From: Escherichia coli
GTDB taxonomy: Bacteria > Pseudomonadota > Gammaproteobacteria > Enterobacterales > Enterobacteriaceae
Reading direction: 5' to 3' (one strand)
DNA length: 64,000 nt
NCBI RefSeq assembly: GCF_041248615.1
Contig: NZ_CP158425.1
The notes below the pieces were generated by a model. That model made no database searches and was not told the origin of the DNA. It saw only the letters and a program-made list of their open reading frames with translations. Position 1 is the first letter of the stretch, and each line of letters begins with the position of its first letter. The position numbers and the translations under genes were made by a program. Of the stretch, positions 1 through 62,468 are shown piece after piece.

Positions 1-551
1 CACACTCAGCCATTAACAACCCTATGATTAACCTTCTGGCGCAGGGTCGTGCAGCGAAAATTGCACTGTTTATTTGCACCCAAACCATCTCCGACTTTAT
101 TGCTGCGGCAAGTGTTGAAACTGCCAATCGAATTACGGGGCTCTGCAACAATTATATAAGCTTGCGAGTCAACGATACTCCTACTCAGACGCTTGTTGTA
201 GAGAACTTTGGTAAGAGTGCGATAAGCACAAATATGGTCACTTATACGACCGGTTCAGAAACATCTTTGCCGCATAATAACTTCTCAGGTTCAATCTCAG
301 AAAGAAAGCAGACAACTTTAGAAGAGAGTATTCCAAAGGATCTCTTGGGTCAGGTCCCTATGTTTCACATAGTTGCCAGGCTTCAAGATGGCAGGAAGGT
401 TGTAGGCCAAATCCCTATTGCTGTTGCTGAGAAACAAATGAAGCCAAACACAACTCTGTCGGAAATGCTTTTCAAGAAGGCCGGAAAAGTTACTTTGCGT
501 CAAAATCTCGATATCAAAAATCTTAATAAATTTCTAAGGAAGTTGCATTGA
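1..551 (+). CDS. C-terminal fragment of a P-loop ATPase (FtsK/HerA/VirD4-like); 5' end lies outside the window
   Basis: Frame of ORF 24..551 is open back to the window edge; GRAAKIALFICTQT resembles the GR-K-G...TQ box that follows Walker B in this ATPase superfamily. Confidence 0.35.
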   Translation, partial: HSAINNPMINLLAQGRAAKIALFICTQTISDFIAAASVETANRITGLCNNYISLRVNDTPTQTLVVENFGKSAISTNMVTYTTGSETSLPHNNFSGSISERKQTTLEESIPKDLLGQVPMFHIVARLQDGRKVVGQIPIAVAEKQMKPNTTLSEMLFKKAGKVTLRQNLDIKNLNKFLRKLH

Positions 552-1660
552 TGGATGAAAAAATTGTCCTGACGCGCCAGCAAATTTTAAGCTCTGCACT
601 AAAAGTCAGCAAATGTCGCTCGCTCGTAAAAAGGCGCTTTCAGTCTTTGGGTTTAAAGTACGCAGATTCTCAGGAAGTTCGAGATCGGCTAACTAAGATA
701 GAAAAAAACGCGTTTCATCATTTGGGAAAATTTTGTCAGAGCAACGATATCGATTCCCTATTCTCCATGGCAAATACCCTGTCTGAGCTTTTCCTTTTAA
801 AGGGAGAGTTGATCACGACTGATCCCTTTGGGGACCGTGAAACCAGCTACTGGTCGGTACCACAAGGTTCATGCCATGAATGGATTCAATCGCTGACCAC
901 CAGCGAAGGTCCTGAACGTAAATTCGTTAGTTTCCGTATTTCTTTCGATAACAATGACGAACGGTGTGATCTTGTAAAGAAGAATGCCCGTATGCTTGGT
1001 TGTTATCTTTTGCCTTATTTCGTCGATTTGACACGCACGGTGGGCGCATTCATTAATTTGCCAGGTAGTGTCTCTTTTAAACAAGTACAGCGCATCAAAC
1101 CCCAGATTCATCCAGAAACAACACATAGTCATATAGTTACTATTGAGGACTCTCCCTTTCTTTCTCGGTTAAAATTTAAAATCATTACTGCCATAGATCG
1201 GCTTCCTGACCCTAATGGCCTTTATACAAACACCTTTAACAGCATTATTGACCGTGCACTGCTGACTCATCTCAAAACCGAACAGGAAAAAATAGATAGT
1301 CCAAGAGTCTGCAAAAATGTGATTTCGGCTTTTGCCGACTCAACTCTTTCTCTGCCGGTGTTTAACATCGGCCTAAACGAGCAGTACAGATACTGGACGC
1401 CGTGGGGCATCAACTTTATAGAATTTTCCCGCCAGGCCGCAAAAGCAAGGACCGCTGTATTTGTTCCTGATGTGGGACAGATCGAGTGGAAAAGCGCAGA
1501 GCATAAAGAACTGGCGGAGTTAAGCCTCATCGACCAAATCATACCTAAACAGTACCACTGGCTCCTGGGTATCCCGACGATGTGGCGTAACAACTATTGC
1601 AATCACGATCAGAGGCTAGCTCTTTTTCGTGAATGGAGGGAAAGCAATGGCTGCGGATAA
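548..1660 (+). CDS. hypothetical protein
   Basis: 370-aa ORF; start overlaps the upstream stop (ATGA), consistent with translational coupling. Confidence 0.5.
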   Translation: MMDEKIVLTRQQILSSALKVSKCRSLVKRRFQSLGLKYADSQEVRDRLTKIEKNAFHHLGKFCQSNDIDSLFSMANTLSELFLLKGELITTDPFGDRETSYWSVPQGSCHEWIQSLTTSEGPERKFVSFRISFDNNDERCDLVKKNARMLGCYLLPYFVDLTRTVGAFINLPGSVSFKQVQRIKPQIHPETTHSHIVTIEDSPFLSRLKFKIITAIDRLPDPNGLYTNTFNSIIDRALLTHLKTEQEKIDSPRVCKNVISAFADSTLSLPVFNIGLNEQYRYWTPWGINFIEFSRQAAKARTAVFVPDVGQIEWKSAEHKELAELSLIDQIIPKQYHWLLGIPTMWRNNYCNHDQRLALFREWRESNGCG

Positions 1661-2309
1661 TACAAGCAGAGCAGCAGTGCTCAGAACAATGCTTTTTTTT
1701 GGCATGGTCATTTATTTTGGTTACAGCCTGGCTTTCCAGAATACTGAGGAGCTCAAATATCAGATTACTCAGGAGGTTAATGCAAGCCGGTCCATCATAT
1801 CAAATGACCGTTGGAAGTCTGTTATTGCAAATAGTGAAGCGACTTTAAATTGGTTGGTACATGACTATAAGTTAATTGACTATCTGAATACTATTCTGAT
1901 CCCTGACACCAAAAAACCAGCCAGAGGTATTAACATTGTTGCTGAAAAATTTACCTCTATTAATTACACTATGGCCAAAAACATACCCCTCTTACTTTAT
2001 CAGTCCATTTTCCGGTGGAACTTAATCCTGGGGTGGCTAATCGTTTTTCTGCCCTATCTATTTGCCATGCTAGCAGATGGAATGTACCAGTGGAAATTGA
2101 AGAGGTACGTATTTGGTAAGGTTACAGTTCAGTTTTATCGTATTTGGTTTCGAGCATTTTGGGTGATCAGTGCTTTAACGATGGTCTACCTGGTCATGCC
2201 GAATATGTCACTATTTAACAATATCGCTCAACTTTTCCCACCAGTCGCTTTATTGATACTGGGAATTGCATTGAATCGCTTGTGGTCTAACTTTCAAAAA
2301 CTCATGTAA
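1629..2309 (+). CDS. integral membrane protein
   Basis: 226-aa ORF with several hydrophobic segments; overlaps the upstream gene. Confidence 0.45.
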   Translation: MNGGKAMAADNTSRAAVLRTMLFFGMVIYFGYSLAFQNTEELKYQITQEVNASRSIISNDRWKSVIANSEATLNWLVHDYKLIDYLNTILIPDTKKPARGINIVAEKFTSINYTMAKNIPLLLYQSIFRWNLILGWLIVFLPYLFAMLADGMYQWKLKRYVFGKVTVQFYRIWFRAFWVISALTMVYLVMPNMSLFNNIAQLFPPVALLILGIALNRLWSNFQKLM

Positions 2310-2319
2310 AGGTGGTCAG

Positions 2320-3501
2320 ATGTTAAGCAGTAAAAAAAGGAAGTCCCCTACAAATATCAAAGAATCGCTCAATGATAACGCTGACCGTTTTTATAAGATG
2401 TTTCGCATTCATACCACGGCAAAAGTTGCTATGTCGCTAATTGCCATGACCGCTGTAGGGTTTTCTTTCTACAATCTTTACGAACAATGGCAGGACGCTG
2501 AAGGGAAGAAAGACCATATAGCTGTAATACGGATTTCTGGCGAGATGGGTACCGGCTCGGAAACGGGCGATGGAACAGTGATCGCAACAGCTCTTGCCAA
2601 AGCTTACAATAATCCCCATGCCAAAGCAGTTATTATCGAGGCAGAGTCAGGTGGTGGTGGTCCCTCTGACGCCATCATTATTTACCGCCAGATAAACGCG
2701 CTTAAAAACCACCAGCCACAGATTGAACGCGTATCAGATGCCGGTTGCTCTCTTTCATCTGTAGCCGCTGACAAGAGTAACAAAACCGGGAGCACAGAAC
2801 GTGGCGATGAAGCACGGTCGAAGCAAAACTCCCTCGAAGTACTCTCCAGCGGTACCGGTCGTTTTTTCTCTGATATCGCAGACTCATATAAACCAATCAT
2901 CGTTAGTGTGAAAGGCATATGCGCATCCGCATGCTATTACGCGGTATCGCCCGCTGATGCAATTTATGCCGACAGTAATGCCCTGATCGGTTCTATCGGT
3001 GTGCGTATGGACCACTGGAATCTGTCAGAGATCATGAGCACAGTAGGCGTCAAGAATGAGCCCCTTACGGCCGGTGAGTTCAAAGATGCTCTTGACCCCT
3101 TCCACCCATTGTCCGATTCAACGAGGGAGTTCATGCAGAAGGAGATCCTGAACACGATGCATGAAAAATTTATAACTGATGTTGAACTTGGACGGGGTAA
3201 AAAGCTTCTCTCGCGTCATGATGCCGATGCTGTTTCTCTCTATTCAGGCCGTGTATGGCCAACACCTCAGGCAGTTAAGTACGGCCTGGTGGATGGAGAT
3301 CTTACGTCAGTAGAGATCCGTACACGTCTTTCAAAAATGTACTCCACTGACACGTTCAAAAACTACAATGAGCCTCATCGTAATCTCCGTTCTGCACTCG
3401 GCATGCTGATGAGCCTGTCTTCAAATATTGAGAGCCTTACCGGTACCACTACCCGCTTGGTAGAATCTGTTAATGCCACCAGCTACCCCTCTGTGAGGTA
3501 A
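2320..3501 (+). CDS. S49-family (SppA-like) serine peptidase, membrane anchored
   Basis: N-terminal TM segment; motifs GICASACYYA and LIGSIGV resemble the SppA active-site region. Confidence 0.55.
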   Translation: MLSSKKRKSPTNIKESLNDNADRFYKMFRIHTTAKVAMSLIAMTAVGFSFYNLYEQWQDAEGKKDHIAVIRISGEMGTGSETGDGTVIATALAKAYNNPHAKAVIIEAESGGGGPSDAIIIYRQINALKNHQPQIERVSDAGCSLSSVAADKSNKTGSTERGDEARSKQNSLEVLSSGTGRFFSDIADSYKPIIVSVKGICASACYYAVSPADAIYADSNALIGSIGVRMDHWNLSEIMSTVGVKNEPLTAGEFKDALDPFHPLSDSTREFMQKEILNTMHEKFITDVELGRGKKLLSRHDADAVSLYSGRVWPTPQAVKYGLVDGDLTSVEIRTRLSKMYSTDTFKNYNEPHRNLRSALGMLMSLSSNIESLTGTTTRLVESVNATSYPSVR

Positions 3502-3502
3502 C

Positions 3503-4234
3503 ATGGATGCTTTCAATCTGCTGTGGAGCATTACGGGGGTAGCTTTCATTATCCTTATTTTCGTCGTGTTGCTGTGTCTGTTGGGTTTTATGACCTCTGC
3601 CATAGCGGAACGGCGGACTGCAAAGGCAATTGAATCTGGGCTTCCTGAAGAAGCTCAGGGGCTACTTAGTGATCTCACCTTTCAGTTGTCGGCTCATAGC
3701 ACTACTCAGGTTGATCACATTCTCGTAGCCCCACATGGTATATACGTCATAGAGCAGAAAAACTACGTAGGCAAGCTCTACGGTACTCTGGAGGAAAGCC
3801 ACTGGCGGAAATGGACTCAGTCCCGAACCCTCAAGTTGCAGAACCCGTTTAAGCAAAACCAGGGGCACATCAGGGCTATTCAGTCTGCTCTTAAGGCTAG
3901 AGAACTGGAATGTATCAATGTCGTCATCATAAACGGACGTTGTAAGTTTGATGGCATCAAGCCGGAATGGTTATGTATGGGGATGGACGATTTTATCCAT
4001 AAAGTCAAACAACGACGAGGGCTACGGTTGTTCACACCGGAGTCTGTTCAGCACATCTGTTCGGTGTTGAAGTCAACAAGGAAGTCGCCAGGGCTCTATA
4101 CGGACCTTACTCATATTCACAACATAACGACAAAGTACAAAGCCCCGATGAAATTCGAGCAACGAGTAACATACATTCTGCTCAACTTTATCCATTATCT
4201 GTGGGCAAGTCTGTTCACTAAGCAGAAGCCTTAG
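3503..4234 (+). CDS. NERD-domain (nuclease-related) protein with N-terminal TM helix
   Basis: HILVAPHGIYVIEQKNYVGKLYG...W fits the NERD pattern; coupled to the upstream stop. Confidence 0.55.
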   Translation: MDAFNLLWSITGVAFIILIFVVLLCLLGFMTSAIAERRTAKAIESGLPEEAQGLLSDLTFQLSAHSTTQVDHILVAPHGIYVIEQKNYVGKLYGTLEESHWRKWTQSRTLKLQNPFKQNQGHIRAIQSALKARELECINVVIINGRCKFDGIKPEWLCMGMDDFIHKVKQRRGLRLFTPESVQHICSVLKSTRKSPGLYTDLTHIHNITTKYKAPMKFEQRVTYILLNFIHYLWASLFTKQKP

Positions 4235-4272
4235 CGCTCTATCATTGGTAAGGCTGTAAAATGTCTGCAAAA

Positions 4273-4306
4273 GGCCCCATCGGTAAATTGTTGGGGCTTT
4301 TTCTTT
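4273..4306 (+). terminator. rho-independent terminator
   Basis: GCCCCA/TGGGGC stem followed by TTTTTCTTT just after the 3503..4234 stop. Confidence 0.5.
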
Positions 4307-5580: not shown

Positions 5581-5883
5581 TCAGTCACCACCACCACCTC
5601 CTCCTCCTCCTCCTCCACCGCCACCATCACAACCACCAGCTATGCTATTTTCACCATTACAATCACCTCCGAGGGGGTTCAAATGGCTGCTCCCCTGTAG
5701 ATGGTGTCCTTGCCAGATCGAACCCGAACCAGCGCCTCCTGAGCGTCTTTGCTTGCCCTGAGGCAATTGTGCAGGCTCACCAGCACCGGCGGTCCCAAAA
5801 ATGTCCCGGGCAATTTTATAAAGAAGGTAAAAAGGTACGCCCAGCATCATAAAAAAGATTACTGAAAATATTACACGTTCCAT
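5581..5883 (-). CDS. small membrane protein with C-terminal poly-Gly tract
   Basis: 100-aa ORF, AGGAGA RBS, TM helix; Gly tract is encoded by a CCN/GGN triplet repeat. Confidence 0.45.
   Translation of the reverse strand: MERVIFSVIFFMMLGVPFYLLYKIARDIFGTAGAGEPAQLPQGKQRRSGGAGSGSIWQGHHLQGSSHLNPLGGDCNGENSIAGGCDGGGGGGGGGGGGGD
5583..5630. repeat. triplet microsatellite (CCA/CCT)n, about 14 units
   Basis: Uninterrupted CCN triplets visible in the sequence. Confidence 0.9.
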
Positions 5884-14168: not shown

Positions 14169-14327
14169 CTACTTACCGGATTCGTAGGCCAGGATAGCAA
14201 ATACCTCCCTTGTTCCGTCTTTCATCCGCAACTCGCAAAGCGAGTTTCGTGTGAGCCAGGTGAATATCAACAGCGTTAAACAAACTATTAATATGCACAA
14301 AACAATGGGTTGGTTCGGCATTTTCAT
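14169..14327 (-). CDS. small membrane protein
   Basis: Hydrophobic 52-aa core of ORF 14169..14468; start uncertain. Confidence 0.3.
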
Positions 14328-18178: not shown

Positions 18179-18505
18179 ATGACTAAAAATACTCGTTTTT
18201 CCCCCGAAGTCCGTCAACGGGCAGTCCGTATGGTTCTGGAAAGTCAGAGCGAATATGACTCACAATGGGCGACAATTTGTTCCATTGCTCCAAAGATTGG
18301 CTGTACGCCGGAGACTCTGCGTGTCTGGGTTCGCCAGCATGAGCGGGATACCGGGGGCGGTGATGGAGGGCTCACCACCGCTGAACGTCAGCGTCTGAAA
18401 GAGCTGGAACGTGAAAATCGTGAACTGCGCCGCAGTAACGATATCCTTCGCCAGGCTTCCGCTTATTTTGCGAAGGCGGAGTTCGACCGCCTCTGGAAAA
18501 AATGA
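18179..18505 (+). CDS. IS3-family transposase OrfA
   Basis: 108-aa product recognised from memory as IS629/IS1203 OrfA. Confidence 0.9.
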
Positions 18506-19392
18506 TGCCACTGCTGGATAAGCTGCGTGAGCAGTACGGGGTCGGACCGCTATGCAGCGAACTGCATATTGCCCCGTCAACGTATTACCACTGTCAGCAA
18601 CAGCGACATCATCCGGATAAACGCAGTGCCCGTGCGCAGCGCGATGACTGGCTGAAGAAAGAGATACAGCGCGTATACGATGAAAATCACAAGGTATACG
18701 GTGTGCGTAAAGTCTGGCGTCAGTTGTTACGGGAAGGTATCAGAGTGGCCAGATGCACTGTGGCACGTCTCATGGCGGTTATGGGACTTGCCGGTGTTCT
18801 CCGGGGTAAAAAGGTCCGTACGACCATCAGCCGGAAAGCCGTTGCCGCAGGCGACCGCGTAAACCGTCAGTTCGTGGCAGAACGACCTGACCAGCTGTGG
18901 GTGGCTGATTTTACTTACGTCAGCACATGGCGGGGCTTCGTCTATGTGGCGTTCATCATTGATGTGTTTGCCGGATACATCGTGGGGTGGCGGGTCTCAT
19001 CGTCCATGGAAACGACATTCGTGCTGGATGCACTGGAGCAGGCGTTATGGGCCCGTCGACCGTCCGGCACGGTCCATCACAGTGATAAAGGTTCTCAGTA
19101 TGTATCGCTGGCCTACACACAGCGGCTTAAGGAAGCCGGATTACTGGCATCAACAGGAAGTACAGGCGACTCGTATGACAACGCGATGGCGGAGAGCATC
19201 AATGGTCTTTACAAAGCGGAGGTAATACACCGTAAGAGCTGGAAAAACCGTGCAGAAGTGGAACTGGCCACACTCACGTGGGTGGACTGGTATAACAATC
19301 GACGATTGCTGGAAAGGCTGGGCCATACTCCTCCGGCAGAAGCAGAAAAAGCTTATTATGCTTCCATCGGAAACGATGATCTGGCAGCCTGA
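18502..19392 (+). CDS. IS3-family transposase OrfB (integrase core)
   Basis: 296-aa product; -1 frame relative to orfA with a poly-A stretch at the junction. Confidence 0.9.
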
Positions 19393-34494: not shown

Positions 34495-34791
34495 TTAATG
34501 GATGAGCGATTTATAGTCATGTGCTGACAAATGGACATTATGTGCGCCATCATTCCATTCAAAGAATAATCGATACTTAGAGTTTACTCGAATGGAGGAA
34601 TAACGGTTTGACGTCATTCTTAAGCGTTCATAACGCAAGCTGTTGGATAATAACTCCCGCTCACTCTGGACATTATCCAGCGTTTCGAGTCGACACAGAA
34701 TCGCGTTAATAATTTCAGAAGGAATACCTGCCGTTGTTTTTCCATTACGGAAGAACTTTTCAAGCCGTCTGTCTTTAAATGAATGGATCAT
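34495..34791 (-). CDS. higB: HigB-like (RelE-fold) toxin
   Basis: MIHSFKDRRLEKFF ... SSIRVNSKYRLFFEWNDGAHNVHLSAHDY matches the HigB killer-protein pattern. Confidence 0.65.
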   Translation of the reverse strand: MIHSFKDRRLEKFFRNGKTTAGIPSEIINAILCRLETLDNVQSERELLSNSLRYERLRMTSNRYSSIRVNSKYRLFFEWNDGAHNVHLSAHDYKSLIH

Positions 34792-35745: not shown

Positions 35746-38163
35746 TTATGTTTGAGGGAATTCTATAGCAAATGTGGCCGTGCCAGATTGACCACTTACA
35801 GCGGGAGTAACGGGATACGTGCGCTCTTCACCATTACCAAGATCCAGTGACAGCGATTTAGTTTCACCAGGCTGGACCGTAACTCCGGCAACCGTAACGC
35901 CGAACTGGGCATTTTTCTGAACAGTCAGGGTTCCGTTTAACTGTCCGGTAATGATAGAACCGTCCTGACGCCGCAACACACTGGTTCGGATGATGGCCAG
36001 CGGCGTGTTGTCCGTTGCTTTCAGTGCTACGGCTGTGGCCAGCGTCTTGAGATTATCCAGCATAATCAGATTCGCAGGCTGGTAGGTAAAATTAAGCGTT
36101 TTAGTGGTCCGGTTACCTGATTCGTCAATAGCCAGTGCCTCCAGATGATACATCTGTCCCGATTCGTCAGTGTTGGGGAAGATTCTGGGGTATTCCGGAA
36201 TAAAGACATCCTTGGATAACGGCGTGAATGCCAGGGTGACCTTTTCAGAGTTAGGTCCACCAGCGAGCTGAAGCGATGTCAGGGAAGCATCCCCAGAGGC
36301 ATCAGTAACGCTTATGCGAAGGTTCTCAAGCCCTTTAACCAGTTTTCCTTCTGCGTCTGCGCCATTAAAACTGAACGCGATAACCGGAAGCGTTGAGTCA
36401 ATTTTCAGCGGTGCATTAAGCGTTTTGGTTCCGGTGTTTCCAACAAGATCCGTGGCAGAGACGCTAACCACCGTATAATCCCCGTCCGGTAGACCAGCGT
36501 ATGAGAAGGTGGCGTTTTTGGTTTTATAATCGCTTTCACTGACGGTCACAGGCTTCAGCGTGAAAGGTTCCCCCCGGGCATTTTTAAGGGTGGCTTCGAA
36601 AACTTTGGTATCCCAGTAGCTGATGTTCCAGGCGTTGACGCGATCATTATCGGTGGCCGTCATAGTGATTGTCTTGGAGGCCTTGTTTACCTGAGCGACA
36701 TTAACCACCGGTGGGTTGTTATCCCAGATAACCGTAAAATTACCAGCAAGCGCATCGAATATGCTGTCACCATCTTTTCCCGAGTAAAGGTGCAGATACT
36801 CAAATCCTTTGTCACTGGTGTAGTTGAAGTTAACCGTCATCTCGCATGAACTTTGTCCGATAGGTATAGTGCAGAACCAGGCTGCATTTTTTACCGTTCT
36901 GAACTTTTGCACGTATGGTCGGGGTTCAGCGGTTACCTTTATGCGGCTAATGGTGGCGGTTTTAACGCTGATTGAGGCCTGAGTTAACCACTCACTGGTA
37001 TCACTCCGGTACATCTCTTTAGCCACTATCTTCGGGGCTATTTCCATCGCCGGGGCTGGAGTGAAGTTGAGGGAGTTATGATGAATTCGTCTTACTCCTC
37101 CTGCCAGAGTCTGGAATTCATGATAAGTATCCCCCACATTGGGATATATGTATTTGAAAGTATAAATATTATAAGTGCTATCGGACGTCTGGAAATTCGA
37201 GTCCGCCCAGCCATATTTGGAACCGTTAACAGCAGTAAAGTCACTTTTTTTCCTTAATACCCGTACGGAAATAGGGTTCTGGAAGACGGTCATGCCAGAC
37301 TGATAAGTGACCCATGATCCGGTAGTGGCGTCCTGCACCTGGATGATATCGTCAGGCTTAACCCGATCAATTACGCTTCGGCGGCTTAGTTCGATCCTGT
37401 TTCCCGCTTTGTCATAAAGGTAGATCCCCACTTTATATTCAGAGCGGTTTTCCGGTGCCAGGGCATTGCTGCTTGCGTCGGCGACTTGAACGGTTACGCT
37501 ACCTTCCACTGTATTAATTTCCGCTGGCTTTTTACGCTCCACTCCAGCGGCATCGGTTATGAAATATTCAGCATTAGCAAGCCCGGAACCTTTATCACTC
37601 AGTCCATTAAAGACCAGTGCCTGGACGCTGGCGTACTGCATACCGGCTGGTACTGAAGTGAAGATCGCTTCGCTGCCAAAGTTCCACCCGTTTCTCGTAT
37701 AACTTATGGTACCCGTTGCCGGAGGCGTTCGGTCAATTGCAAGCGGGTAATCCTGCCGGGAGACCTCCTTCCCTTGCAAGTCGGTAATCACCTCTCTGAG
37801 GGTGAAGCTATCTTCTCCCATCGCTGGTACGGTCAGAGTCTTGCCGTAATAATCAAAGCCTGTCGAAGATGTGGTACGGTCATCTACGGTAACCAGGCTG
37901 CTTTTCGTGCTCCAGATGAGGCTCCCGTCACTTTTCAGCAGACTGAGCGTAATATAACGGTCCAGACCGGAAATAACGGCAACGTCAAAGCTCGTTACCG
38001 GATTAATCCATACGGATGCAGGCGATACGGTCTTTTTAACGTTCAGGGTATCTTTAAAGCTGAATTCTGCGATTTCAGCGGAAGCTCCTGCGCTGAAACC
38101 TGCAAATGCAATAAGCAGGGCTAGTTTGATTTTCATGGGTTGTCTCCTGATCAGGTTCCCCAT
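35746..38163 (-). CDS. large secreted protein, paralog A of an about 800-aa family
   Basis: Sec signal peptide ending ASA; conserved LISGLDRY and C-terminal LTVQKNAQFG blocks shared with two other ORFs. Confidence 0.6.
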   Translation of the reverse strand: MGNLIRRQPMKIKLALLIAFAGFSAGASAEIAEFSFKDTLNVKKTVSPASVWINPVTSFDVAVISGLDRYITLSLLKSDGSLIWSTKSSLVTVDDRTTSSTGFDYYGKTLTVPAMGEDSFTLREVITDLQGKEVSRQDYPLAIDRTPPATGTISYTRNGWNFGSEAIFTSVPAGMQYASVQALVFNGLSDKGSGLANAEYFITDAAGVERKKPAEINTVEGSVTVQVADASSNALAPENRSEYKVGIYLYDKAGNRIELSRRSVIDRVKPDDIIQVQDATTGSWVTYQSGMTVFQNPISVRVLRKKSDFTAVNGSKYGWADSNFQTSDSTYNIYTFKYIYPNVGDTYHEFQTLAGGVRRIHHNSLNFTPAPAMEIAPKIVAKEMYRSDTSEWLTQASISVKTATISRIKVTAEPRPYVQKFRTVKNAAWFCTIPIGQSSCEMTVNFNYTSDKGFEYLHLYSGKDGDSIFDALAGNFTVIWDNNPPVVNVAQVNKASKTITMTATDNDRVNAWNISYWDTKVFEATLKNARGEPFTLKPVTVSESDYKTKNATFSYAGLPDGDYTVVSVSATDLVGNTGTKTLNAPLKIDSTLPVIAFSFNGADAEGKLVKGLENLRISVTDASGDASLTSLQLAGGPNSEKVTLAFTPLSKDVFIPEYPRIFPNTDESGQMYHLEALAIDESGNRTTKTLNFTYQPANLIMLDNLKTLATAVALKATDNTPLAIIRTSVLRRQDGSIITGQLNGTLTVQKNAQFGVTVAGVTVQPGETKSLSLDLGNGEERTYPVTPAVSGQSGTATFAIEFPQT

Positions 38164-43688: not shown

Positions 43689-46109
43689 ATGAAACATCTC
43701 GCTTTTATTACTGCTGTAGCCGGACTCGGTATGTCTGTTCAGGCCCCAGCTCAGATATATGAATCGGCCTTTAAGGACACGAACGGTATTGAGATCCACG
43801 CCCCGTCTTCTCGTCTTATGCTTAATCCGGCATCACCGGTAACTTTGACACTTATTTCAGGTCTTGATCGTTTCGTTAATGTCAAAGTCACGAAAGACAC
43901 TGGAACTGTCATTCTTAATACTACGACTACACGGACGGGTGTATCAGACCGACTAACAGCTGCTGACGGTAGTGAGTTCTACGGCAAAAAAGTAACTTTG
44001 CCTGCTTTGGGTGAAGGCAAATTTGTCGTTCAGATAAACGTGTTAGATCTCAATCAGAAGCCTGTAGCGACCTATAACTATAACTGGCTAATTGATGTCA
44101 CCCCTCCAGCGGCAAATGCTCTTACCGCTAATACTGGTTCTGGCTCTACCGCTGGTGACGTGTGGAAGCTTGGATTAGAGGCAACGGGGCAGTATGACTT
44201 CACCTCTTCGGGCGTAAGTGATGCAAATGGTATTGATAAGGGCCTAATATATATTTACAGGCAGGACGGTAGCCTCTACAGCACTACACAGATGCAGTAT
44301 GACGTATCCGGCCAAAAGATGTACCACACTTACTCTAAGAATTCAGTTAAGGGAACCGGAATACCAGACAGCAACCTGGATGAAGACTTTACTGCAAAAG
44401 TTGTTATCTTCGATAACGCAGGTAATAGCCGAACGCTGCCAACTCAAAAATTTCGCTACGACAACACGCTGGGTGAGATGACACTGTGGGCCGTTCATGA
44501 TCCAAATACGTCTTCCAGCGTCGTACCCGGGGTTTCTAATTATCCGGCTTACAAAGCCGGTATGGTCGTTAACGAAAACCCTATTCGATTAGTCTACCGG
44601 ATCCCAAAATCTAACTACCGTGCTTATTCAGAAGGTGGGCTTCAGTTCATCAATCAATATTCCGCCCCCAAAGAGATAGCTGTAGACAGCACTTATGCTT
44701 ATGTTGAAATGACTCTTCCCTATGGCTCAATTAATGGGGATATGGCTCGTATGGCGAACTTTGGCCAGTGGGGAGGGTATTATCCGTCATACAGCCTCGT
44801 TCTAAACCCATCTGCAAACCAAACGCCTGCATTTGCGGGTACCTGGGTAGATTTCCTCGATGATAAGGGGAACTGGGTTAAGTGGAAGGATTTTGAGAGT
44901 GTGGCTTCATCACGACTGCCAATTAAAATTTCCCGACTTCGTTTTAACGTTGAAGCCCGGCCCTTTGCACAGGAGATCGGCGGTAAGGCGACCTGCACCA
45001 TTCCGGCAGGAAAAACCTCGTGTGAAGCGCCTGAGACGTTTGATATGGCCTTGGGTACCCAGGGCTACAATAGAATCCTTTACTTCGTTCGCAGCATCAG
45101 CAATCCCATTTTGCGGTCTGAGCAATGGATTATGACACGCTGGAACAATAAACAACTGCCGGTAATAAACTCGATATCATATGACGAGACTAACAAGCAG
45201 CTGGATGTACTGGCGTCACTTGAAGGCGATGGTAACTGGTTCGACTCGGTCTCATTGAGGGAATTTTATCTTTCCGATAAGAACACCGGTACCCGGATGT
45301 CACCAACAGGCGTAATCAAATCTCGTATCTCAGGTAACTACACGATTGCTTATGATTTATCCCGTCAGTCTGAAGGAAAATACAACGTTGAGGTCAACAT
45401 CAGGGACTTCTTCCAGAACCAGACCAATAAAACTTTCGGAGAAATTGCTCTGGATAACACTCCTCCGACAGTGGCCATAACATTCGACGGAAAGCCGGTA
45501 AAAGACGATACGGTAGTGTACGGCCTGGAGAACCTCAGGATCGCTCTGGCAGATAATCTGACAACCCCGAGGATAACCCGTCTTCAGCTCGTAGGTGGCC
45601 CCACAGCTGATAACGTTGAGCTTACGTGGTCACCGGCAGGCAAAGATACATACATGCCTGAGTATCCGAGGCTGTTCCCAAATTTCGAACCATCTGAAAA
45701 TTATTCAATTAGCGTAACAGTTGCCGATAGTCAGTCGAATACCAAAACCTATACTCAGAAGTTCAGTTATCTACCGAATAACCTTGTGCAGTTACATAAT
45801 CTACGCACATTGTCGGTCAGTTCACCTCTCAAAACGACAGATGGCGTACCACTTGCGTACCTGTCCACTAACGTTCTGCGTAAGACAAATGGAGAAATTG
45901 CTAAAGGGGTCCAGAACGCAACGCTGACTGTGCGGAAGGATGCAGCCTTCGGTATTAAATTTAATGGGGCACAGGCGGCTCCAGGCGAGTCAGTTGAGGT
46001 GCAAATAGATATGGGCCAGGGGGATAATCTTCTGTTACCCGTTTATCCTTCCGAAAATGGGAAAGTTGGCACCTCAGAATTCATGATTCAGATCGACGAG
46101 TTGAAGTAA
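43689..46109 (+). CDS. large secreted protein, paralog B of the about 800-aa family
   Basis: Signal peptide ending AQA; same conserved blocks as paralogs A and C. Confidence 0.6.
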   Translation: MKHLAFITAVAGLGMSVQAPAQIYESAFKDTNGIEIHAPSSRLMLNPASPVTLTLISGLDRFVNVKVTKDTGTVILNTTTTRTGVSDRLTAADGSEFYGKKVTLPALGEGKFVVQINVLDLNQKPVATYNYNWLIDVTPPAANALTANTGSGSTAGDVWKLGLEATGQYDFTSSGVSDANGIDKGLIYIYRQDGSLYSTTQMQYDVSGQKMYHTYSKNSVKGTGIPDSNLDEDFTAKVVIFDNAGNSRTLPTQKFRYDNTLGEMTLWAVHDPNTSSSVVPGVSNYPAYKAGMVVNENPIRLVYRIPKSNYRAYSEGGLQFINQYSAPKEIAVDSTYAYVEMTLPYGSINGDMARMANFGQWGGYYPSYSLVLNPSANQTPAFAGTWVDFLDDKGNWVKWKDFESVASSRLPIKISRLRFNVEARPFAQEIGGKATCTIPAGKTSCEAPETFDMALGTQGYNRILYFVRSISNPILRSEQWIMTRWNNKQLPVINSISYDETNKQLDVLASLEGDGNWFDSVSLREFYLSDKNTGTRMSPTGVIKSRISGNYTIAYDLSRQSEGKYNVEVNIRDFFQNQTNKTFGEIALDNTPPTVAITFDGKPVKDDTVVYGLENLRIALADNLTTPRITRLQLVGGPTADNVELTWSPAGKDTYMPEYPRLFPNFEPSENYSISVTVADSQSNTKTYTQKFSYLPNNLVQLHNLRTLSVSSPLKTTDGVPLAYLSTNVLRKTNGEIAKGVQNATLTVRKDAAFGIKFNGAQAAPGESVEVQIDMGQGDNLLLPVYPSENGKVGTSEFMIQIDELK

Positions 46110-46269: not shown

Positions 46270-48115
46270 TGATTACGACAATGGGAGTGAGTGTCGAACC
46301 CCTTGAGTAAGGATACTTGGTAAATATACAGCCCCGGGGATTCTCTTCCTTCAACCGGGGATGACAACGGGAGTGAGTCCGGCAACTCACACCTGTTGTC
46401 ACTTCTCTGACATATCGTCATACGAGCTTACTCAAGCGCATCCACAAAGATGGGATCGTTTTGAATCTAAACTGGTACTGGTTAGCCAGTCACTTGCATC
46501 TACTCCCCCGTCGATATTTAAGTGACAATTGTAGTGATCTGCAATACTGGTGTCTCAGAAACACTGACGACGGTAGAGACTCAATACCCTAACCCCTGAC
46601 AACAGAAGTGAGCTTAGAGGTGTTACGCTGCTGTCACCTAATGCTTGGGAATTGCCTGACTCACAACCATTGTCATCCGGAGCTACTGATTAACGTTGAA
46701 CCGCTGGACTTTAATGACAGTGGTAGTGATGGATAGGCTCATTTCCATTGTCGTCATTTTATCGGACAAGCCTCTTCGTCCTACAGGTTTAAGCTGACAA
46801 TGGTAGTGATTGGATGATCTCACTACTGTTGTCACTCAGTTCTTTGAGCGGACCCTTCCCTCGGTTGGTCGGCATTAACAACGGTAGTGACTCGATTGGC
46901 TCACTGCCATTGTCATCGTGTAAATGACGTACCTTATCAGCTCAGCTGAAAGCAATGACAACGGTAGTGACTCTAATTGCTCACTGCCATTGTCGTCGTG
47001 TCTATTGAGAGCCTTATCAGTGCACCTGAAAAGCAATGACAACGGTAGTGATTCTAATGGCTCACTACCGTTGTCACCGTGTGTATTGAGAGGATGGTCC
47101 ACCTAACTGGACGTATATGACAATGGTAGTGACTTTAATAGCTCACTACCATTGTCGGTGTGTGAATTGAGAGGATGAGCAGCTCAGCTGTACGTCCATG
47201 ACAATGGTAATGACTTAATGAGCTCACTACCGTTGTCACCCTGTTAATTAAGAGGCTCATCTGCTCTTCTGGAAGGCTATGACAACGGAAGTGACTTGCT
47301 GGGCTCACTGCCATTGTCGCCGTATGAATTGAGAGGATCATCCGCTCTTCTGGATGGCAATGACAACGGTAATGACTTAATAGGCTCACTACCATTGTCA
47401 CCCTGTGAATTGAGAGGATGATCTGCTTAACCAGACGGCCATGACAACGGTAGTGACTTTCTGGGCTCAATACCGTTGTCACCCTGTGAGTTAAGAGGTT
47501 GACCCGCTCTACTGGACGGCCATGACAACGGTAGTCACTTTCTGGGCTCACTACCGTTGTCACCCTGTGAGTTAAGAGGTTGACCCGCTCTACTGGACGG
47601 CCATGACAACGGTAGTCACTTTCTGGGCTCACTACCGTTGTCGCCATATAGAATGAGAGGAGCATCAGCTCAACTGAACGGCAATGACTACAGTAATGAG
47701 CTGGATGAAGCATAACCATTGACATCTGGCCCAACCGGAAGCCGTATTCGCCAATCCAATCGAGATTCACAATGGCCGTGACTCGCCGCATTAAGTTCCG
47801 GTGTCCTCCCAAAGCTGAACGCACACTCGGAGGACAATGACAATGCCAGTAAGGTACACATCATTACCATTGTCACTATAGCTACCAGAGAAGCCGGGAT
47901 TTGAATGTCGATGGTAGTGAGTGGGTCAACTCACTGCCATTGTCACCCCGTTACGATATTTTCCGTTGGATGTACTGGCCAATGAAGTAAAGCGTAGAAA
48001 CCGGGTGTTAACAGGTGACTCAGGAGAAAGCGTTGAATTTCGCAATCTCGATCTACATAGGGTGGTAGAGAACAATGACAACGGTAATGACTTTTGACTC
48101 ATTACCGTTGACGTG
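46270..48115. repeat. array of about 20 palindromic iteron pairs with about 81-bp periodicity (incA-like copy-control region)
   Basis: Units ATGACAACGGTAGTGAC-8nt-CTCACTACCGTTGTCAC recur every 80-81 bp (47118, 47198, 47279, 47360, 47441, 47522, 47603 and others). Confidence 0.7.
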
Positions 48116-48187: not shown

Positions 48188-49276
48188 TTAGCTGGCGTTG
48201 CTGTTCTTTTTCTGGCTTCGAAGACTACGAATATAGCGCAGTTCTTCAGCGGTTAAATCATGGACGGTAAGAACATCATCGCCGTCAATCGGGTCAGCTG
48301 GTGGGCATAACTCACCTTCTAAAACAGAAGACCCTGAGTTCTCTTCTTCATCTTCAACCACTTCTAAAGGAGGCTGAGTATTGTTCAAATTCAGATCGGG
48401 ATCCCGCTTATGAATCTGGAAGTATACTTTTCCGTCTTTCTTAATTTCGGTGTACTTGAGGTATCCTATCGATGCCAACTCTTCAAGAGCCTTTCTCACG
48501 GTAGCATTCTGACTATTTGCTCGTGTTTTGAGGTTCAGACGATTTTTCAGCCGAGTAAGGGATATCGGTATAGGATTTGGCGGTAATGACTCTATGAACG
48601 TATAGAGAGCCTGGGCGCTTTCCTTCTTGGCCAACTCCTTAATTGCCTTCAGCTGCATCAAAACCTTATGATCGTATTGATAGAGCTCGAAAATCTTAGG
48701 ATCAACCTGAAGGACAACCTGATCTGATTCCGGGTCTAACAGGGCAGACTGTACCAGATGCGTTGTATAGACTTTGGACGAGTTATTACTGGTGAACGAC
48801 AAGGTAACGGATGCTAACCTGCGTAAGGAGGCGTCTATACGTTTTCTGGACGCTGTAGATGAGCGATAATTTTCAGGCGTACATAGCTTGAGGAATTCAG
48901 TGAATTTTAAGCTTATCGTGTCATTGTTAATCGGATGATTGGCATAGGTTCGAATGATGCCCATCCACGTCTTAAAATCTACTGACATATTAAGACGCTC
49001 ACCGACAATTGAAATATTGGTGAACCCCTCGCTCTCCATTAAAGAGAGCGTCTGTAACTCTTTCGTTGCGTCAAAGCCAACCGTTTTATATTCCCGATTT
49101 TGACGCCCCACACTCTTTGGTGATGGGACGAACAGCCCGAGCCGCATCAAAGCAATAGACTGCACCGTACGGTTGCTGTTAGGACGCAAAATGATGTCTT
49201 TACCTGATTCTTTCTCTCTAACAGAGAAAGCCCTGGTGACCAGGTCCTGCTGCTCAGTATCTTTCTCTTTAGTCAT
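48188..49276 (-). CDS. repA: replication initiator RepA, P1/RepFIB family
   Basis: TVQSIALMRLGLFVP, DFKTWMGII, LYQYDHKVL, ALYTFIESLP and IGYLKY match P1 RepA blocks recalled from memory; iterons on both sides. Confidence 0.85.
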   Translation of the reverse strand: MTKEKDTEQQDLVTRAFSVREKESGKDIILRPNSNRTVQSIALMRLGLFVPSPKSVGRQNREYKTVGFDATKELQTLSLMESEGFTNISIVGERLNMSVDFKTWMGIIRTYANHPINNDTISLKFTEFLKLCTPENYRSSTASRKRIDASLRRLASVTLSFTSNNSSKVYTTHLVQSALLDPESDQVVLQVDPKIFELYQYDHKVLMQLKAIKELAKKESAQALYTFIESLPPNPIPISLTRLKNRLNLKTRANSQNATVRKALEELASIGYLKYTEIKKDGKVYFQIHKRDPDLNLNNTQPPLEVVEDEEENSGSSVLEGELCPPADPIDGDDVLTVHDLTAEELRYIRSLRSQKKNSNAS

Positions 49277-49495: not shown

Positions 49496-50020
49496 TCACT
49501 ACTATTGTCGCTCTGATCACTACTGATGTCAAAAAACTCATTACCAACGTTATAATAATCACTACTAATGTCAAAATAATCACTACTGTTGTCACTGATC
49601 ACGTCTCAGGCCTTGTGCCGTCTGGCCTGGAGGCAGCGGGGATCTCTTTTGATCTATCAGGAACACTAAGGTACTAATTATTGGAACTACCTTGTGGAAA
49701 ATGGGGATAAATAAATGCTTAGTTCTTATACAGGTCTCAACTTGCCTCCCTGATAAAAACTGTCGTCAAAGCTAAATCACAGCCACAGGCATTTTCGGTG
49801 GATAAATTTTTGAGAAATAGAAGCATACATGCAGACTCGTGTCGCAAGTAATTGAAAGTAATGATTTATTTAAATAATGCGAGTCACCTTACCTCACAGT
49901 GGAAGTTTAAGTCTAACCTCACTACCATTGTCACTTAAAATCATTACCAACGTCGAAATAGTCTCTACCATTGTCTTTTAAGTCACTCCCGTTGTCACTT
50001 ATGTCGCTACTGTTGTCAGT
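49496..50020. repeat. origin iterons: two sets of five direct repeats (TCACTACNNTTGTC) at 21-22-bp spacing
   Basis: Set 1 starts at 49496, 49517, 49538, 49559, 49580; set 2 at about 49918 to 50004. Confidence 0.7.
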
Positions 50021-59606: not shown

Positions 59607-60440
59607 TTGACTCGACATCTCAGACACATGCCGATAATCAAATGGGCTGGTGGAAAAACGAAACTGATGCCTTTCATCAGCCATCACTACCCACACGATC
59701 ATAGTTGCCGGTGGGTAGAACCCTTTATAGGCGGTGGTGCCGTTTTTCTGAACATGTTTGCACAAAATGCATTGCTTGCAGATAGCAATCCAGACTTGAT
59801 CAACCTATACAGGACTATTCAAAGACAGAAAACTAACTTTATAAATCAGGTCCAAAACTTGGCGGATAAAACCTTTGTCGAAAAGGACTACTATGAGATG
59901 AGGGACCGTTTCAACAAAACCTGTATTTCTGGTCAATCGCTTCAAAGAGCGGCTTTGTTTTACTCCCTGAATCGCCTGGGCTATAACGGTATGTGCCGCT
60001 ATAACTCAGAAAGAATCTATTCAGTGCCGTGGGGGAAACATACAGAACTGAAGCTTGACCTCAATAAAATAGACTACCTTTCATTTCGTCTTTCAGGTAT
60101 TGAACTGATCACCGCTGGTTTTGAGGAGACTCTGGCCGCAACCGGTGAAGGAGATCAGATTTACTGTGATCCGCCATATGACAAAACAAGCAAAACTAGT
60201 TTTGTCAGTTACGATGGTAAACCGTTCAGCCAAAGCGACCACGTGCTGTTAGCAAATATGCTCGTTGACGCTCACAGAAAAGGCGCTGCTGTTGCGATAT
60301 CAAATAGCCTGACATCATTCACTTTGGGCCTCTATGAAGAGCGTGGATTCGTCATACACAGACTCAGCGCTTACCGATCCGTAGGAAGTAAGCCGAATAC
60401 ACGGAAAACGGAAACAGAAATACTGGCCGTGCTGAAATAG
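59607..60440 (+). CDS. Dam-like (D12 class) N6-adenine DNA methyltransferase
   Basis: IKWAGGK and DPPY motifs. Confidence 0.8.
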   Translation: MTRHLRHMPIIKWAGGKTKLMPFISHHYPHDHSCRWVEPFIGGGAVFLNMFAQNALLADSNPDLINLYRTIQRQKTNFINQVQNLADKTFVEKDYYEMRDRFNKTCISGQSLQRAALFYSLNRLGYNGMCRYNSERIYSVPWGKHTELKLDLNKIDYLSFRLSGIELITAGFEETLAATGEGDQIYCDPPYDKTSKTSFVSYDGKPFSQSDHVLLANMLVDAHRKGAAVAISNSLTSFTLGLYEERGFVIHRLSAYRSVGSKPNTRKTETEILAVLK

Positions 60441-60448
60441 AGTAAATT

Positions 60449-61116
60449 CTAATCAACTAGGCTAATCCATTCCTCAAAAGTTAATACCTCAGGGTAAGTT
60501 CGTTGAACATAAGGTATAAACTGAAGCTCTTCTATTCTCCGGTCGCCCCTCTTTCCTTCGCAAATAAATGAAATGAGTCCTTGCTGAGAAAGGCCAGTAA
60601 GGACGCTCATAAGTCTTATATTTAGACTTTTAAGCTGTAAGTCGTTATTAATGTCCTCCACTTTATGAGAGCTCTGGCCTGAACGTTTAAGATACTCGTA
60701 AACCATGAAATTCGAATTTCGTCGTTTTAACAATTTTTCGGTTATGCATTCCTGAATGAAGTCGCCAAGAGCATCTAAAAGCGGACTGAGAACTACCGGG
60801 AAAGTTAATGTGTAACTTTGAGAAGTTTTAGACAAAGTGAATGAGTTTAGAAAGCTAAAGTTTAGTCTCTTTTTTGAATATGGAACATAAGCGACAAGAG
60901 TAGTCGACATAACAGTAAGTAAAGCTTCAAGATGGTTCACTGTTATTAAAGTGGTTTTATCTGTATTTCTAAGATTATGGAAATCAATAAACGCTACTCT
61001 TGAACGGCTAAGCCAATCTTGTACTTTAATGTCGATAGAAAATTGCGAGATATGATTTGAACATTCATTTTGGGTGATAGGGCATGCAGACGAAAGATGG
61101 TTATGGATTATCATGC
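60449..61116 (-). CDS. hypothetical protein convergent with the Dam-like gene
   Basis: AT-rich ORF; start set at the internal Met because the longer track ORF runs through the upstream palindromic motif at 61201. Confidence 0.35.
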
Positions 61117-61537
61117 ATAGCACAAAAAAAGGAAAACGGCAGGCTGTGGGGCATTGAAAACCGGTTAAAGAAAGCTTAGACGTTTCATATGCGCTTACCG
61201 GAAAAGTAACTTTTCTTAACGTTGGCTTTGACGATGTTCTTGCATTTTTACAAATGAAACCGAGACCCAGATCATTGTGCATTTTAAAGTCCATCTCCAT
61301 CATCACCTTTTAGCCTTAACTGTATGGTATTGGTATACAAAAAATTAAAATTATAATTAATAAGATTATCATTTTTTTACAATAGAAAAGGTTCTGATAG
61401 AGGGGAATTTAAATGTAAAAGATTTATACTCGCAGATCTTTATGAGGGATAAAACCCATTGCGTAAGCAACAATATTACGTGAGTGAGTCCTAACGACAG
61501 TTAAAGTCTTGGCTCTATATTTAAGCAGCAAAAACAT

Positions 61538-62451: not shown

Positions 62452-62468
62452 TCAACTAATCCTCGTTT

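What the first reader, a model, noticed from the sequence alone, without database searches (positions are those of the whole stretch)
1..4234. Translationally coupled operon: ATPase fragment, 370-aa protein, membrane protein, S49 peptidase, NERD-domain protein
Five plus-strand genes with overlapping stops and starts end in a membrane-anchored S49 peptidase and a membrane-anchored NERD protein, downstream of what looks like the C-terminus of an FtsK/HerA/VirD4-type ATPase. An ATPase with a protease and a nuclease-like effector in one tight operon resembles defence or abortive-infection systems, or an accessory module of a conjugative coupling apparatus. The operon is cut by the window edge.
Basis: inference. 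Interest (0 to 1): 0.55.

Follow-up and report, generated by a model that had tools for sequence, protein, structure and literature searches.

The report
IncHI2 plasmid DNA-transfer operon tail
This is the downstream half of the well-known conjugative DNA-transfer (Tra1/Dtr) operon of IncHI2 resistance plasmids, so it is ordinary, although nobody appears to know what its last two genes (a membrane protease and a membrane nuclease-like protein) do.

Summary
They are not a stand-alone defence operon. Window 1-4300 is 100% identical to about 960 sequenced IncHI2 plasmids, and the window is the last 64 kb of E. coli plasmid p14408_M1, which carries repHI2. Extending upstream gives one eight-gene operon: mobI, orf, mobH relaxase (traI), traD/traG coupling protein, orf370, traJ/dtrJ (DUF4400), S49 peptidase, NERD protein. 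It is transcribed away from the oriT region and ends at a hairpin plus T-run at 4269-4306.

The "ATPase fragment" is the C-terminus of a VirD4-type coupling protein of the SXT_TraD subfamily. The same eight genes occur in R27 (IncHI1) and in more distant IncHI-like plasmids.

Both the S49 and NERD proteins keep their catalytic residues (S203/K255; D71/E84/K86) and are under purifying selection. No complete known defence system was matched. An S49 gene follows dtrJ even in distant marine MOBH plasmids, whereas NERD is found only in IncHI-type plasmids. orf370 is an orphan with no recognisable fold.

Verdict: already known and low interest. One modest open question remains: what the conserved S49/NERD tail does.

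The parts
1..551 (+). 3' end (last 183 codons) of traD (called traG in R27 nomenclature), the type IV coupling protein (T4CP)
   Evidence: Matches NCBIfam SXT_TraD positions 496-635 of 636, E 3.5e-46. The full 694-aa gene in identical plasmids scores 676.8 bits against a cut-off of 366. RefSeq CDS WP_001284076.1 ends at window 551.
551..1660 (+). orf370: soluble 369-aa protein of unknown function, found only in IncHI-type plasmids, between the T4CP and TraJ genes
   Evidence: No Pfam, NCBIfam, PADLOC or PHROG hit. Only 19 representative clusters among 1.84 billion proteins. The AF2 model (pLDDT 79.5, pTM 0.82) has no fold neighbour outside its own family. 31 columns are invariant across 9 homologues. 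pN 0.20 against pS 0.84 versus IncHI1.
1647..2309 (+). traJ / dtrJ-family polytopic membrane protein (DUF4400), the T4CP partner needed for DNA transfer in related plasmids
   Evidence: PF14348, 1.6e-12. RefSeq names it 'IncC plasmid conjugative DNA transfer DtrJ family protein'. Four hydrophobic segments. Its Rts1 homologue is essential for conjugation (PMC10838148).
2320..3501 (+). S49-family Ser/Lys peptidase with an N-terminal anchor; catalytic domain predicted to face the periplasm
   Evidence: PF01343, 5.8e-28. S203 and K255 align with B. subtilis SppA S147 and K199 in 3RST/4KWB. A 58-aa insertion at residues 131-188. Below the curated SppA and SohB cut-offs. The K/R-rich N-terminus followed by hydrophobic residues 36-54 suggests N-in/C-out topology (inference).
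3503..4234 (+). Membrane-anchored NERD (PD-(D/E)xK-like) protein; NERD domain predicted to face the cytoplasm
   Evidence: PF08378, 1.9e-21. D71, E84 and K86 are invariant in 7 homologues. TM segment 12-30 with K/R after it. The best Foldseek neighbours of the AF2 model (pLDDT 83) are PD-(D/E)xK nucleases, but none is significant (E >= 0.012).
4269..4306 (+). Hairpin plus T-run: probable intrinsic terminator that ends the operon
   Evidence: AAAAGGCCCCA...UGGGGCUUUUUCUUU; MFE -18.6 kcal/mol, z = -3.1 against shuffles. It lies in the convergent intergenic gap before the minus-strand gene that ends at 4521. The simple terminator scan missed it, probably because the unpaired region at the top of the stem exceeds the scan's 8-nt loop limit.

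Best explanation
Window 1-4306 is the distal half of the DNA-transfer (Dtr) operon in the Tra1 region of an IncHI2 conjugative plasmid.

The whole operon is mobI (traH in R27), orf245, mobH relaxase (traI), traD/traG coupling protein, orf370, traJ/dtrJ, S49 peptidase and NERD protein. It is transcribed away from the oriT-containing intergenic region. On the other side of that region lie the divergently transcribed pilus and mating-pair genes, including trhF, trhH and trhG.

How it works, from what is established for the families involved: MobI and the MobH relaxase nick oriT. The VirD4-type coupling ATPase, together with its membrane partner TraJ/DtrJ, hands the relaxase-bound single strand to the F-like type IV secretion system.

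The last three non-core genes (orf370, S49, NERD) are co-transcribed and tightly packed lineage-specific accessories. They are conserved and apparently catalytically competent.

My best inference for the last two: the S49 enzyme is a periplasm-facing, membrane-anchored Ser/Lys protease that removes or processes membrane peptides or proteins made when the transfer apparatus is expressed, an SppA/SohB-like housekeeping role. The NERD protein is a membrane-tethered, cytoplasm-facing nuclease-like protein that acts on DNA near the coupling complex. Both probably modulate conjugation rather than being required for it.

Shown here: the identity of the operon, the domain and catalytic-residue calls, and the conservation. 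Inferred: the topologies and the roles of S49, NERD and orf370.
For: - 100% identity over 4300 nt to about 960 plasmids typed IncHI2 / MOBH / MPF_F. The window maps to p14408_M1, which carries repHI2.
- Upstream in that same record lie mobI, orf, mobH and traD.
- Full-length TraD scores 676.8 bits (cut-off 366) and the MobH relaxase 255.7 bits (cut-off 200).
- The same eight-gene order occurs in R27 itself, in another IncHI1 plasmid, in a Klebsiella IncHI-like plasmid and in a metagenomic relative.
- The order MobI, orf, TraI_2, T4CP, orf, DtrJ, S49 is also found in Motilimonas, Vibrio and metagenome plasmids whose S49 is only about 30% identical.
- Tight gene junctions, no significant internal promoter, and a terminal hairpin.
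- Catalytic residues are conserved and selection is purifying.
- Literature: IncHI1/2 relaxases form MOBH11 and need a MobI-like factor, TraH in R27 (bioRxiv 10.1101/2025.04.21.649884). DUF4400 TraJ is essential in Rts1, SXT and R27 (PMC10838148). DtrJ is another name for TraJ (PMC11493245).
Against: - Nothing contradicts the identification of the operon.
- The proposed roles of S49, NERD and orf370 have no direct evidence. No paper in the searchable library discusses them.
- From my memory of the abstract of Lawley et al. 2002 (J Bacteriol 184:2173; not held here), only 9 of the 14 Tra1 ORFs of R27 were needed for transfer. On the Dtr side these were traH, traI, traG and traJ. By counting, this implies the S49 and NERD homologues are dispensable in laboratory matings. 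A strict conjugation role is therefore unlikely.
- IS insertions in the NERD, S49 or traJ genes occur in a few natural plasmids.
Confidence: 0.92

Rival explanations
1. The S49 peptidase and NERD protein, with or without orf370, form an anti-phage or abortive-infection module that merely rides at the end of the transfer operon. For example, they could protect piliated donors from pilus-specific phages or degrade incoming foreign DNA at the membrane.
For: - NERD domains occur at the N-termini of defence proteins. There are weak domain-level matches to PglW (BREX), MkoA (Mokosh) and MAD6.
- The catalytic residues of both proteins are intact.
- The genes appear dispensable for mating in R27 (my recollection of Lawley 2002; not verified here).
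- The plasmid's flanking region is rich in methyltransferases, an HNH endonuclease and toxin-antitoxin genes.
Against: - No PADLOC model matches S49, orf370 or TraJ, and the NERD matches cover only the domain at 21-24 bits.
- The pair is never seen as a free-standing cassette. S49 is glued to dtrJ over very deep divergence, which is unlike mobile defence islands.
- The predicted opposite topologies (protease outside, nuclease inside) argue against a simple sensor-effector pair.
Confidence: 0.07
2. S49 is a dedicated maturation or turnover protease for a component of the coupling complex or pilus, such as TraJ/DtrJ, the T4CP, or the pilin leader. NERD is a second DNA-processing nuclease of the relaxosome, for instance for termination or for processing the complementary strand. 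On this reading both are true conjugation factors whose loss is masked in standard laboratory matings.
For: - The dtrJ-S49 adjacency persists at about 30% S49 identity across Enterobacterales, Vibrio, Motilimonas and metagenome plasmids.
- Tight gene junctions consistent with translational coupling.
- IncC plasmids keep a related S49 gene next to dsbA on the backbone.
- Purifying selection only a little weaker than on TraJ and TraD.
Against: - Rts1, whose every conjugation gene was mapped by systematic deletion, lists no S49 peptidase among its conjugation genes; the two proteases it needs are a LepB-like S26 peptidase and a TraF-family peptidase.
- The R27 ORFs are apparently non-essential (my recollection of Lawley 2002).
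- NERD is absent from the non-IncHI relatives.
Confidence: 0.25
3. The S49 gene is a remnant of a phage head-maturation (prohead) protease, and the block is prophage-derived.
For: The best PHROG hit is phrog_53, 'head maturation protease', E 5.4e-33. S49 includes the phage lambda protein C family (own knowledge).
Against: - An N-terminal membrane anchor, and no capsid, portal or terminase genes nearby.
- The closest solved relatives are bacterial SppA enzymes.
- The gene is embedded in a transfer operon in every relative examined.
Confidence: 0.01

Closest known systems
Tra1 region (Dtr side) of IncHI1 plasmid R27: traH, orf, traI, traG, orf, traJ, then two further ORFs
   Same: Identical gene order and gene number. 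Amino-acid identity to an IncHI1 plasmid (L003) is TraD/TraG 83%, TraJ 82%, S49 73%, orf370 66%, NERD 63%. There is the same divergent arrangement with trhF, trhH and trhG across the oriT-containing intergenic region.
   Different: The incompatibility subgroup differs (repHI2 here). Synonymous sites are saturated between the two. No structural difference was found in this block.
Dtr module of MOBH12 elements (IncC/IncA plasmids, SXT/R391 ICEs, IncT Rts1): traI, traD, orf, traJ/dtrJ
   Same: The same core logic of MobH relaxase, SXT_TraD-type T4CP and a DUF4400 membrane partner, with a small unknown ORF between the T4CP and TraJ genes.
   Different: In Rts1, gene numbering leaves at most one ORF (orf205) between traJ (orf204) and dsbC (orf206), so there is no room for an S49-NERD pair there. 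IncC keeps a 26%-identical S49 gene elsewhere, next to dsbA. orf370 has no detectable homologue outside IncHI-type plasmids.
Signal peptide peptidase A (SppA) and SohB, the bacterial S49 membrane proteases
   Same: S49 fold, Ser/Lys dyad in the same positions (S203/K255 against SppA_Bs S147/K199), and an N-terminal membrane anchor.
   Different: Scores fall below the curated equivalog cut-offs for SppA (121 < 155; 96 < 311) and SohB (55 < 259). It carries a 58-residue insertion (131-188) and is plasmid-borne within a transfer operon. Its substrate is unknown.
Single-domain NERD proteins (for example pXO1-01 of Bacillus anthracis; Grynberg and Godzik 2004, own knowledge)
   Same: A NERD domain with the D...ExK core, often with a predicted TM helix. 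Bacillus plasmid homologues were detected.
   Different: Here the gene is fixed as the last gene of a conjugative Dtr operon and carries a roughly 100-residue helical C-terminal extension. No biochemical data exist for this protein.

Membership tests
IncHI-type (MOBH11) Tra1/Dtr transfer operon | A type IV coupling protein of the SXT_TraD subfamily immediately upstream, in the same operon | tested here: met
   The window fragment matches TIGR03743 positions 496-635, 3.5e-46. The full-length gene from the identical plasmid scores 676.8 bits against a cut-off of 366.
IncHI-type (MOBH11) Tra1/Dtr transfer operon | A MobH-family relaxase, and a MobI-like factor next to oriT, upstream on the same strand | tested here: met
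   MobH NF041494 scores 255.7 bits against a cut-off of 200. mobI is annotated by RefSeq in the source plasmid. My own NCBIfam scan of the MobI protein gave no hit at 1e-5, but Pfam MobI PF19456 is on record for the positional homologues in L010, L012 and L016.
IncHI-type (MOBH11) Tra1/Dtr transfer operon | A DUF4400 / TraJ (DtrJ-like) membrane protein downstream of the T4CP | tested here: met
   PF14348, 1.6e-12; four hydrophobic segments.
IncHI-type (MOBH11) Tra1/Dtr transfer operon | Located on an IncHI replicon with F-like mating-pair genes | tested here: met
   repHI2 lies at window 48188-49276. trhH and the trhG-like genes are divergent from mobI. PLSDB typing is IncHI2A / MOBH / MPF_F.
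IncHI-type (MOBH11) Tra1/Dtr transfer operon | Genes required for conjugative DNA transfer (genetic test) | not testable with these tools
   The homologues traI, traD and traJ are essential in Rts1. The R27 data (Lawley 2002) were not readable here.
SppA / SohB signal-peptide-peptidase equivalogs (S49) | An S49 domain with the catalytic Ser/Lys dyad | tested here: met
   PF01343, 5.8e-28. S203 and K255 align to S147 and K199 of B. subtilis SppA.
SppA / SohB signal-peptide-peptidase equivalogs (S49) | A score above the curated whole-protein cut-off of the SppA or SohB models | tested here: not met
   TIGR00706 121.2 < 155.45; TIGR00705 96.1 < 311.45; PRK10949 59.1 < 746; SohB 54.9 < 259. It is therefore an S49-family member but not an SppA or SohB orthologue.
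NERD / PD-(D/E)xK nuclease-like domain | A NERD profile match and a conserved D...ExK core | tested here: met
   PF08378, 1.9e-21. D71, E84 and K86 are invariant. The fold neighbours are PD-(D/E)xK nucleases but individually non-significant.
NERD / PD-(D/E)xK nuclease-like domain | Demonstrated nuclease activity | not testable with these tools
   No solved structure or sequence match in the PDB. No literature was found.
Known anti-phage defence systems (PADLOC-DB v2) | Full-length matches of the component proteins to the models of one system | tested here: not met
   There are no hits for the TraD fragment, orf370, TraJ or S49. NERD gives only domain-level hits to PglW (24.1 bits) and MkoA (20.8 bits).
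   All matches are to T4CP or VirB4-type conjugation ATPases (TraD, VirD4-like, MobC, VirB4); none is to FtsK or HerA.

The most novel reading that the evidence does not exclude
The S49 peptidase is an ancient, so far unstudied companion of the T4CP-DtrJ membrane complex in MOBH1 plasmids. The IncHI lineage added orf370 and a membrane-tethered NERD nuclease. Together they would perform a real but condition-dependent function. Candidates are proteolytic maturation or clearance of a coupling-complex or pilus component, DNA trimming at the secretion channel, or a donor-specific anti-phage or anti-competitor activity. Any of these affects how efficiently IncHI resistance plasmids spread in nature.
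Probability: 0.25. Interest if true: 0.45.

Novelty: already known. Interest (0 to 1): 0.15.

Why it matters
IncHI2 plasmids are major carriers of mcr, ESBL and heavy-metal resistance genes, and their transfer operon is already mapped and annotated in about a thousand records. The finding therefore adds nothing new at the level of "what is this locus". One small point is worth keeping. Three conserved genes in the core DNA-transfer operon (orf370, S49 peptidase, NERD) have no assigned function, even though their catalytic residues are intact and they are under purifying selection. The dtrJ-S49 linkage also extends to distant marine MOBH plasmids. If these genes modulate transfer or donor survival, they would be candidate targets or markers for the spread of IncHI plasmids.

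Tried and rejected
- **Defence system:** PADLOC scan of all five proteins. Only domain-level NERD hits, so rejected.
- **Phage origin:** PHROG scan. S49 hits head-maturation proteases, as expected for the family, but the context and the membrane anchor rule this out.
- **Positional analogues of orf370:** a profile-profile comparison with the roughly 190-aa ORFs at the same position in Vibrio and Motilimonas plasmids gave 8% probability, E 0.004, over a C-terminal 'W-P ... GIP' stretch. This is too weak to call.
- **NERD in Vibrio gigantis p1:** the ORF downstream of its S49 gene is not a diverged NERD; there is no similarity.
- **NERD structure:** no PDB sequence match. The Foldseek neighbours are PD-(D/E)xK nucleases, but all have E >= 0.012.
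- **Literature:** Lawley et al. 2002 and 2003 are not held. Searches for S49 or NERD in IncHI or IncC conjugation, and for the R27 locus tags, returned nothing relevant.
- **Internal promoter for S49/NERD:** promoter-like sites are fewer than in shuffles (2 against 7.3), so there is no support.
- **Natural IS insertions as a guide to dispensability:** a handful fall in traJ, S49 and NERD. They are too few to say anything.

Full report
**Observation.**
ORF listing and direct reading of the junctions confirm five co-directional plus-strand genes between 1 and 4234:
- the 3' end of an ATPase gene, ending at 551
- a 369-aa ORF, 551-1660
- a 220-aa membrane protein, 1647-2309
- a 393-aa S49 peptidase, 2320-3501
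- a 243-aa NERD protein, 3503-4234

Two junctions overlap: 1 nt (TGATG) and 14 nt. The other two are gaps of 10 nt and 1 nt. Purine-rich Shine-Dalgarno-like sequences precede three of the four starts: traJ, S49 and NERD. A hairpin with a T-run at 4269-4306 (-18.6 kcal/mol, z = -3.1) closes the unit, ahead of a convergent minus-strand gene. The promoter scan gives no support for an internal promoter (2 sites against 7.3 expected).

**Identity of the locus.**
Megablast of window 1-4300 finds 980 plasmid records. Of these, 978 are at least 99% identical, and almost all are typed conjugative. It also finds 243 E. coli records, of which 242 places are on plasmids.

The window is the last 64 kb of E. 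coli NRZ14408 plasmid p14408_M1. This stretch carries repHI2 at window 48188-49276. In that same record, the sequence upstream of window position 1 contains the rest of the coupling-protein gene. Before it lie a MobH relaxase gene, a 245-aa ORF and mobI. Across a roughly 760-bp intergenic region lie the divergent mating-pair genes: a thioredoxin-family gene at the position I take to be trhF, then trhH, then a gene for a TraG-N-domain protein that I take to be trhG.

The full-length coupling protein scores 676.8 bits on NCBIfam SXT_TraD (cut-off 366). The relaxase scores 255.7 bits on MobH (cut-off 200). The finding is therefore the distal half of the Tra1/Dtr operon of an IncHI2 plasmid.

R27, the IncHI1 prototype whose Tra1 region was dissected genetically, has exactly the same eight genes in the same order. 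So do another IncHI1 plasmid, a Klebsiella IncHI-like plasmid and a metagenomic relative.

The literature held here supports this reading:
- IncHI1/HI2 relaxases form the MOBH11 clade and need a MobI-like factor, TraH in R27 (bioRxiv 10.1101/2025.04.21.649884).
- The DUF4400 protein TraJ/DtrJ is an essential DNA-transfer component in Rts1, SXT and R27 (PMC10838148; PMC11493245).

**The individual proteins.**
- *ATPase fragment.* It is VirD4-type, not FtsK/HerA.
- *Membrane protein.* It is DUF4400/DtrJ-like, with four hydrophobic segments.
- *S49 protein.* It matches Pfam S49. It aligns without gaps to B. subtilis SppA across the catalytic core. This places S203 on the nucleophile S147, and K255 on the general base K199 (an alanine in the crystallised mutant) (the residue roles are from my knowledge of the SppA literature). 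It fails the curated cut-offs for SppA and SohB and carries a 58-residue insertion. Its K/R-rich N-terminus followed by a moderately hydrophobic segment suggests an N-in anchor with the protease domain outside (inference).
- *NERD protein.* It matches Pfam NERD and keeps an invariant D71...E84-x-K86 core across seven homologues. A strong TM helix at residues 12-30 is followed by basic residues, which puts the domain in the cytoplasm (inference). The AF2 model (pLDDT 83) has PD-(D/E)xK nucleases as its nearest PDB neighbours, though none is significant.
- *orf370.* It is an orphan. There are no family hits and only 19 clusters among 1.84 billion representatives. A confident model (pTM 0.82) has no fold neighbours beyond its own family.

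**Are the accessory genes functional?**
Between IncHI2 and IncHI1, synonymous sites are saturated (pS 0.74-0.84), while non-synonymous differences stay low:

| Gene | pN |
|---|---|
| TraD | 0.10 |
| TraJ | 0.12 |
| S49 | 0.165 |
| orf370 | 0.20 |
| NERD | 0.24 |

All five are under purifying selection. The accessory genes are somewhat less constrained than the essential ones.

**Distribution.**
S49 and NERD co-occur almost perfectly in IncHI2 and IncHI1 plasmids: 268 records each in the 60-80% identity band, and 956 and 967 records at 99% or more.

At greater distance, an S49 gene still directly follows dtrJ in Vibrio gigantis p1, in Motilimonas eburnea and in metagenomic plasmids (S49 28-32% identical to the window protein). 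These lack NERD and have a shorter unrelated-looking ORF in place of orf370. IncC plasmids carry a 26%-identical S49 gene elsewhere, beside dsbA. Another plasmid has one beside an OmpA-like gene.

TM-NERD homologues at 26-40% identity are solitary genes on other plasmids, two of them typed MOBH. So S49 is an old companion of the MOBH1 transfer module, whereas NERD and orf370 are additions specific to IncHI-type plasmids.

**Interpretation.**
The defence or Abi reading is not supported:
- No PADLOC system is matched. Only the bare NERD domain resembles the N-termini of PglW and MkoA.
- The genes are never found as a free cassette.
- The predicted topologies of protease and nuclease are opposite.

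IncHI entry exclusion is already assigned to EexA and EexB (PMC11493245).

From my memory of the abstract of Lawley et al. 2002 (not readable here), 9 of the 14 Tra1 ORFs of R27 are required for transfer. On the Dtr side these are only traH, traI, traG and traJ. Counting against the R27 gene list, the S49 and NERD ORFs would be among the dispensable ones. This is an inference, not a verified statement.

The most likely roles are therefore modulatory. S49 would be a periplasm-facing Ser/Lys membrane protease acting on peptides or proteins produced when the transfer apparatus is expressed. NERD would be a membrane-tethered nuclease-like protein acting near the coupling complex. Neither role has been shown.

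**Verdict.**
The locus is already known and annotated in about a thousand plasmid sequences, and its core has been characterised genetically. Interest is low. The one residual question is the function of the conserved orf370/S49/NERD accessories, together with the deep dtrJ-S49 linkage. No paper in the searchable library addresses it.

Noticed in passing
window 46871-47699, 49516-49594, 49960-50018 (flanking repHI2 at 48188-49276, minus strand): A 10-copy 81-bp tandem array lies downstream of repHI2, and two short arrays of 21-bp repeats lie upstream. All share a core like CACTACC(A/G)TTGTCAC. They are presumably iterons and a copy-control or incompatibility array of the IncHI2 replicon.
   Followed up: no
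window 35746-38136 (-), 43689-46109 (+), 50384-52840 (-): Three large genes for Ig-like-domain proteins (about 800 aa each) surround the replication region. They resemble the R27 RSP-type bacterial Ig-like proteins that have been implicated in conjugation (the title of PMC8730810 was seen).
   Followed up: no
window about 4500-35000, minus strand: A long block of about 45 mostly small hypothetical genes runs convergent to the Dtr operon. It includes a Hok toxin (14169-14288), DUF6012 and HNH endonuclease genes (21559-22815), a 795-aa protein with a PAPS-reductase domain (23924-26308), a DNA methyltransferase (29492-30742) and a RelE/ParE toxin (34495-34791). It is interrupted by an IS3-family element (18179-19392). 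The block looks like an establishment or anti-restriction region; its function is unassigned.
   Followed up: no
window 5581-5883 (-): An annotated 100-aa hypothetical protein contains a run of 13 glycines. On the plus strand the same stretch reads as a poly-proline run, so it is a GGN/CCN homocodon tract about 40 nt long. It could be prone to slippage.
   Followed up: no
L006 (IncC plasmid pMS-37b) 6935-8770; L014 7476-8942: Related plasmid S49 peptidase genes sit outside the Dtr operon. In IncC the gene is directly upstream of a DsbA-family gene. In a metagenomic plasmid it is directly downstream of a gene for an OmpA-like protein. This hints at an envelope-related role for this plasmid S49 clade.
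   Followed up: partly
window 60001-64000: G+C content falls to 36-38%, against about 46% for the rest of the window.
   Followed up: no
L018-L020 and hit H43 (IncHI2 plasmids pF2_14D_HI2, pYD786-1, pSA186_MCR1, NZ_CP119741): Natural IS insertions interrupt traJ (IS1203), NERD (an IS3-family element and ISApl1) and S49 (an IS5-family element) in a few otherwise identical plasmids. PLSDB still types the three that were examined as conjugative.
   Followed up: partly
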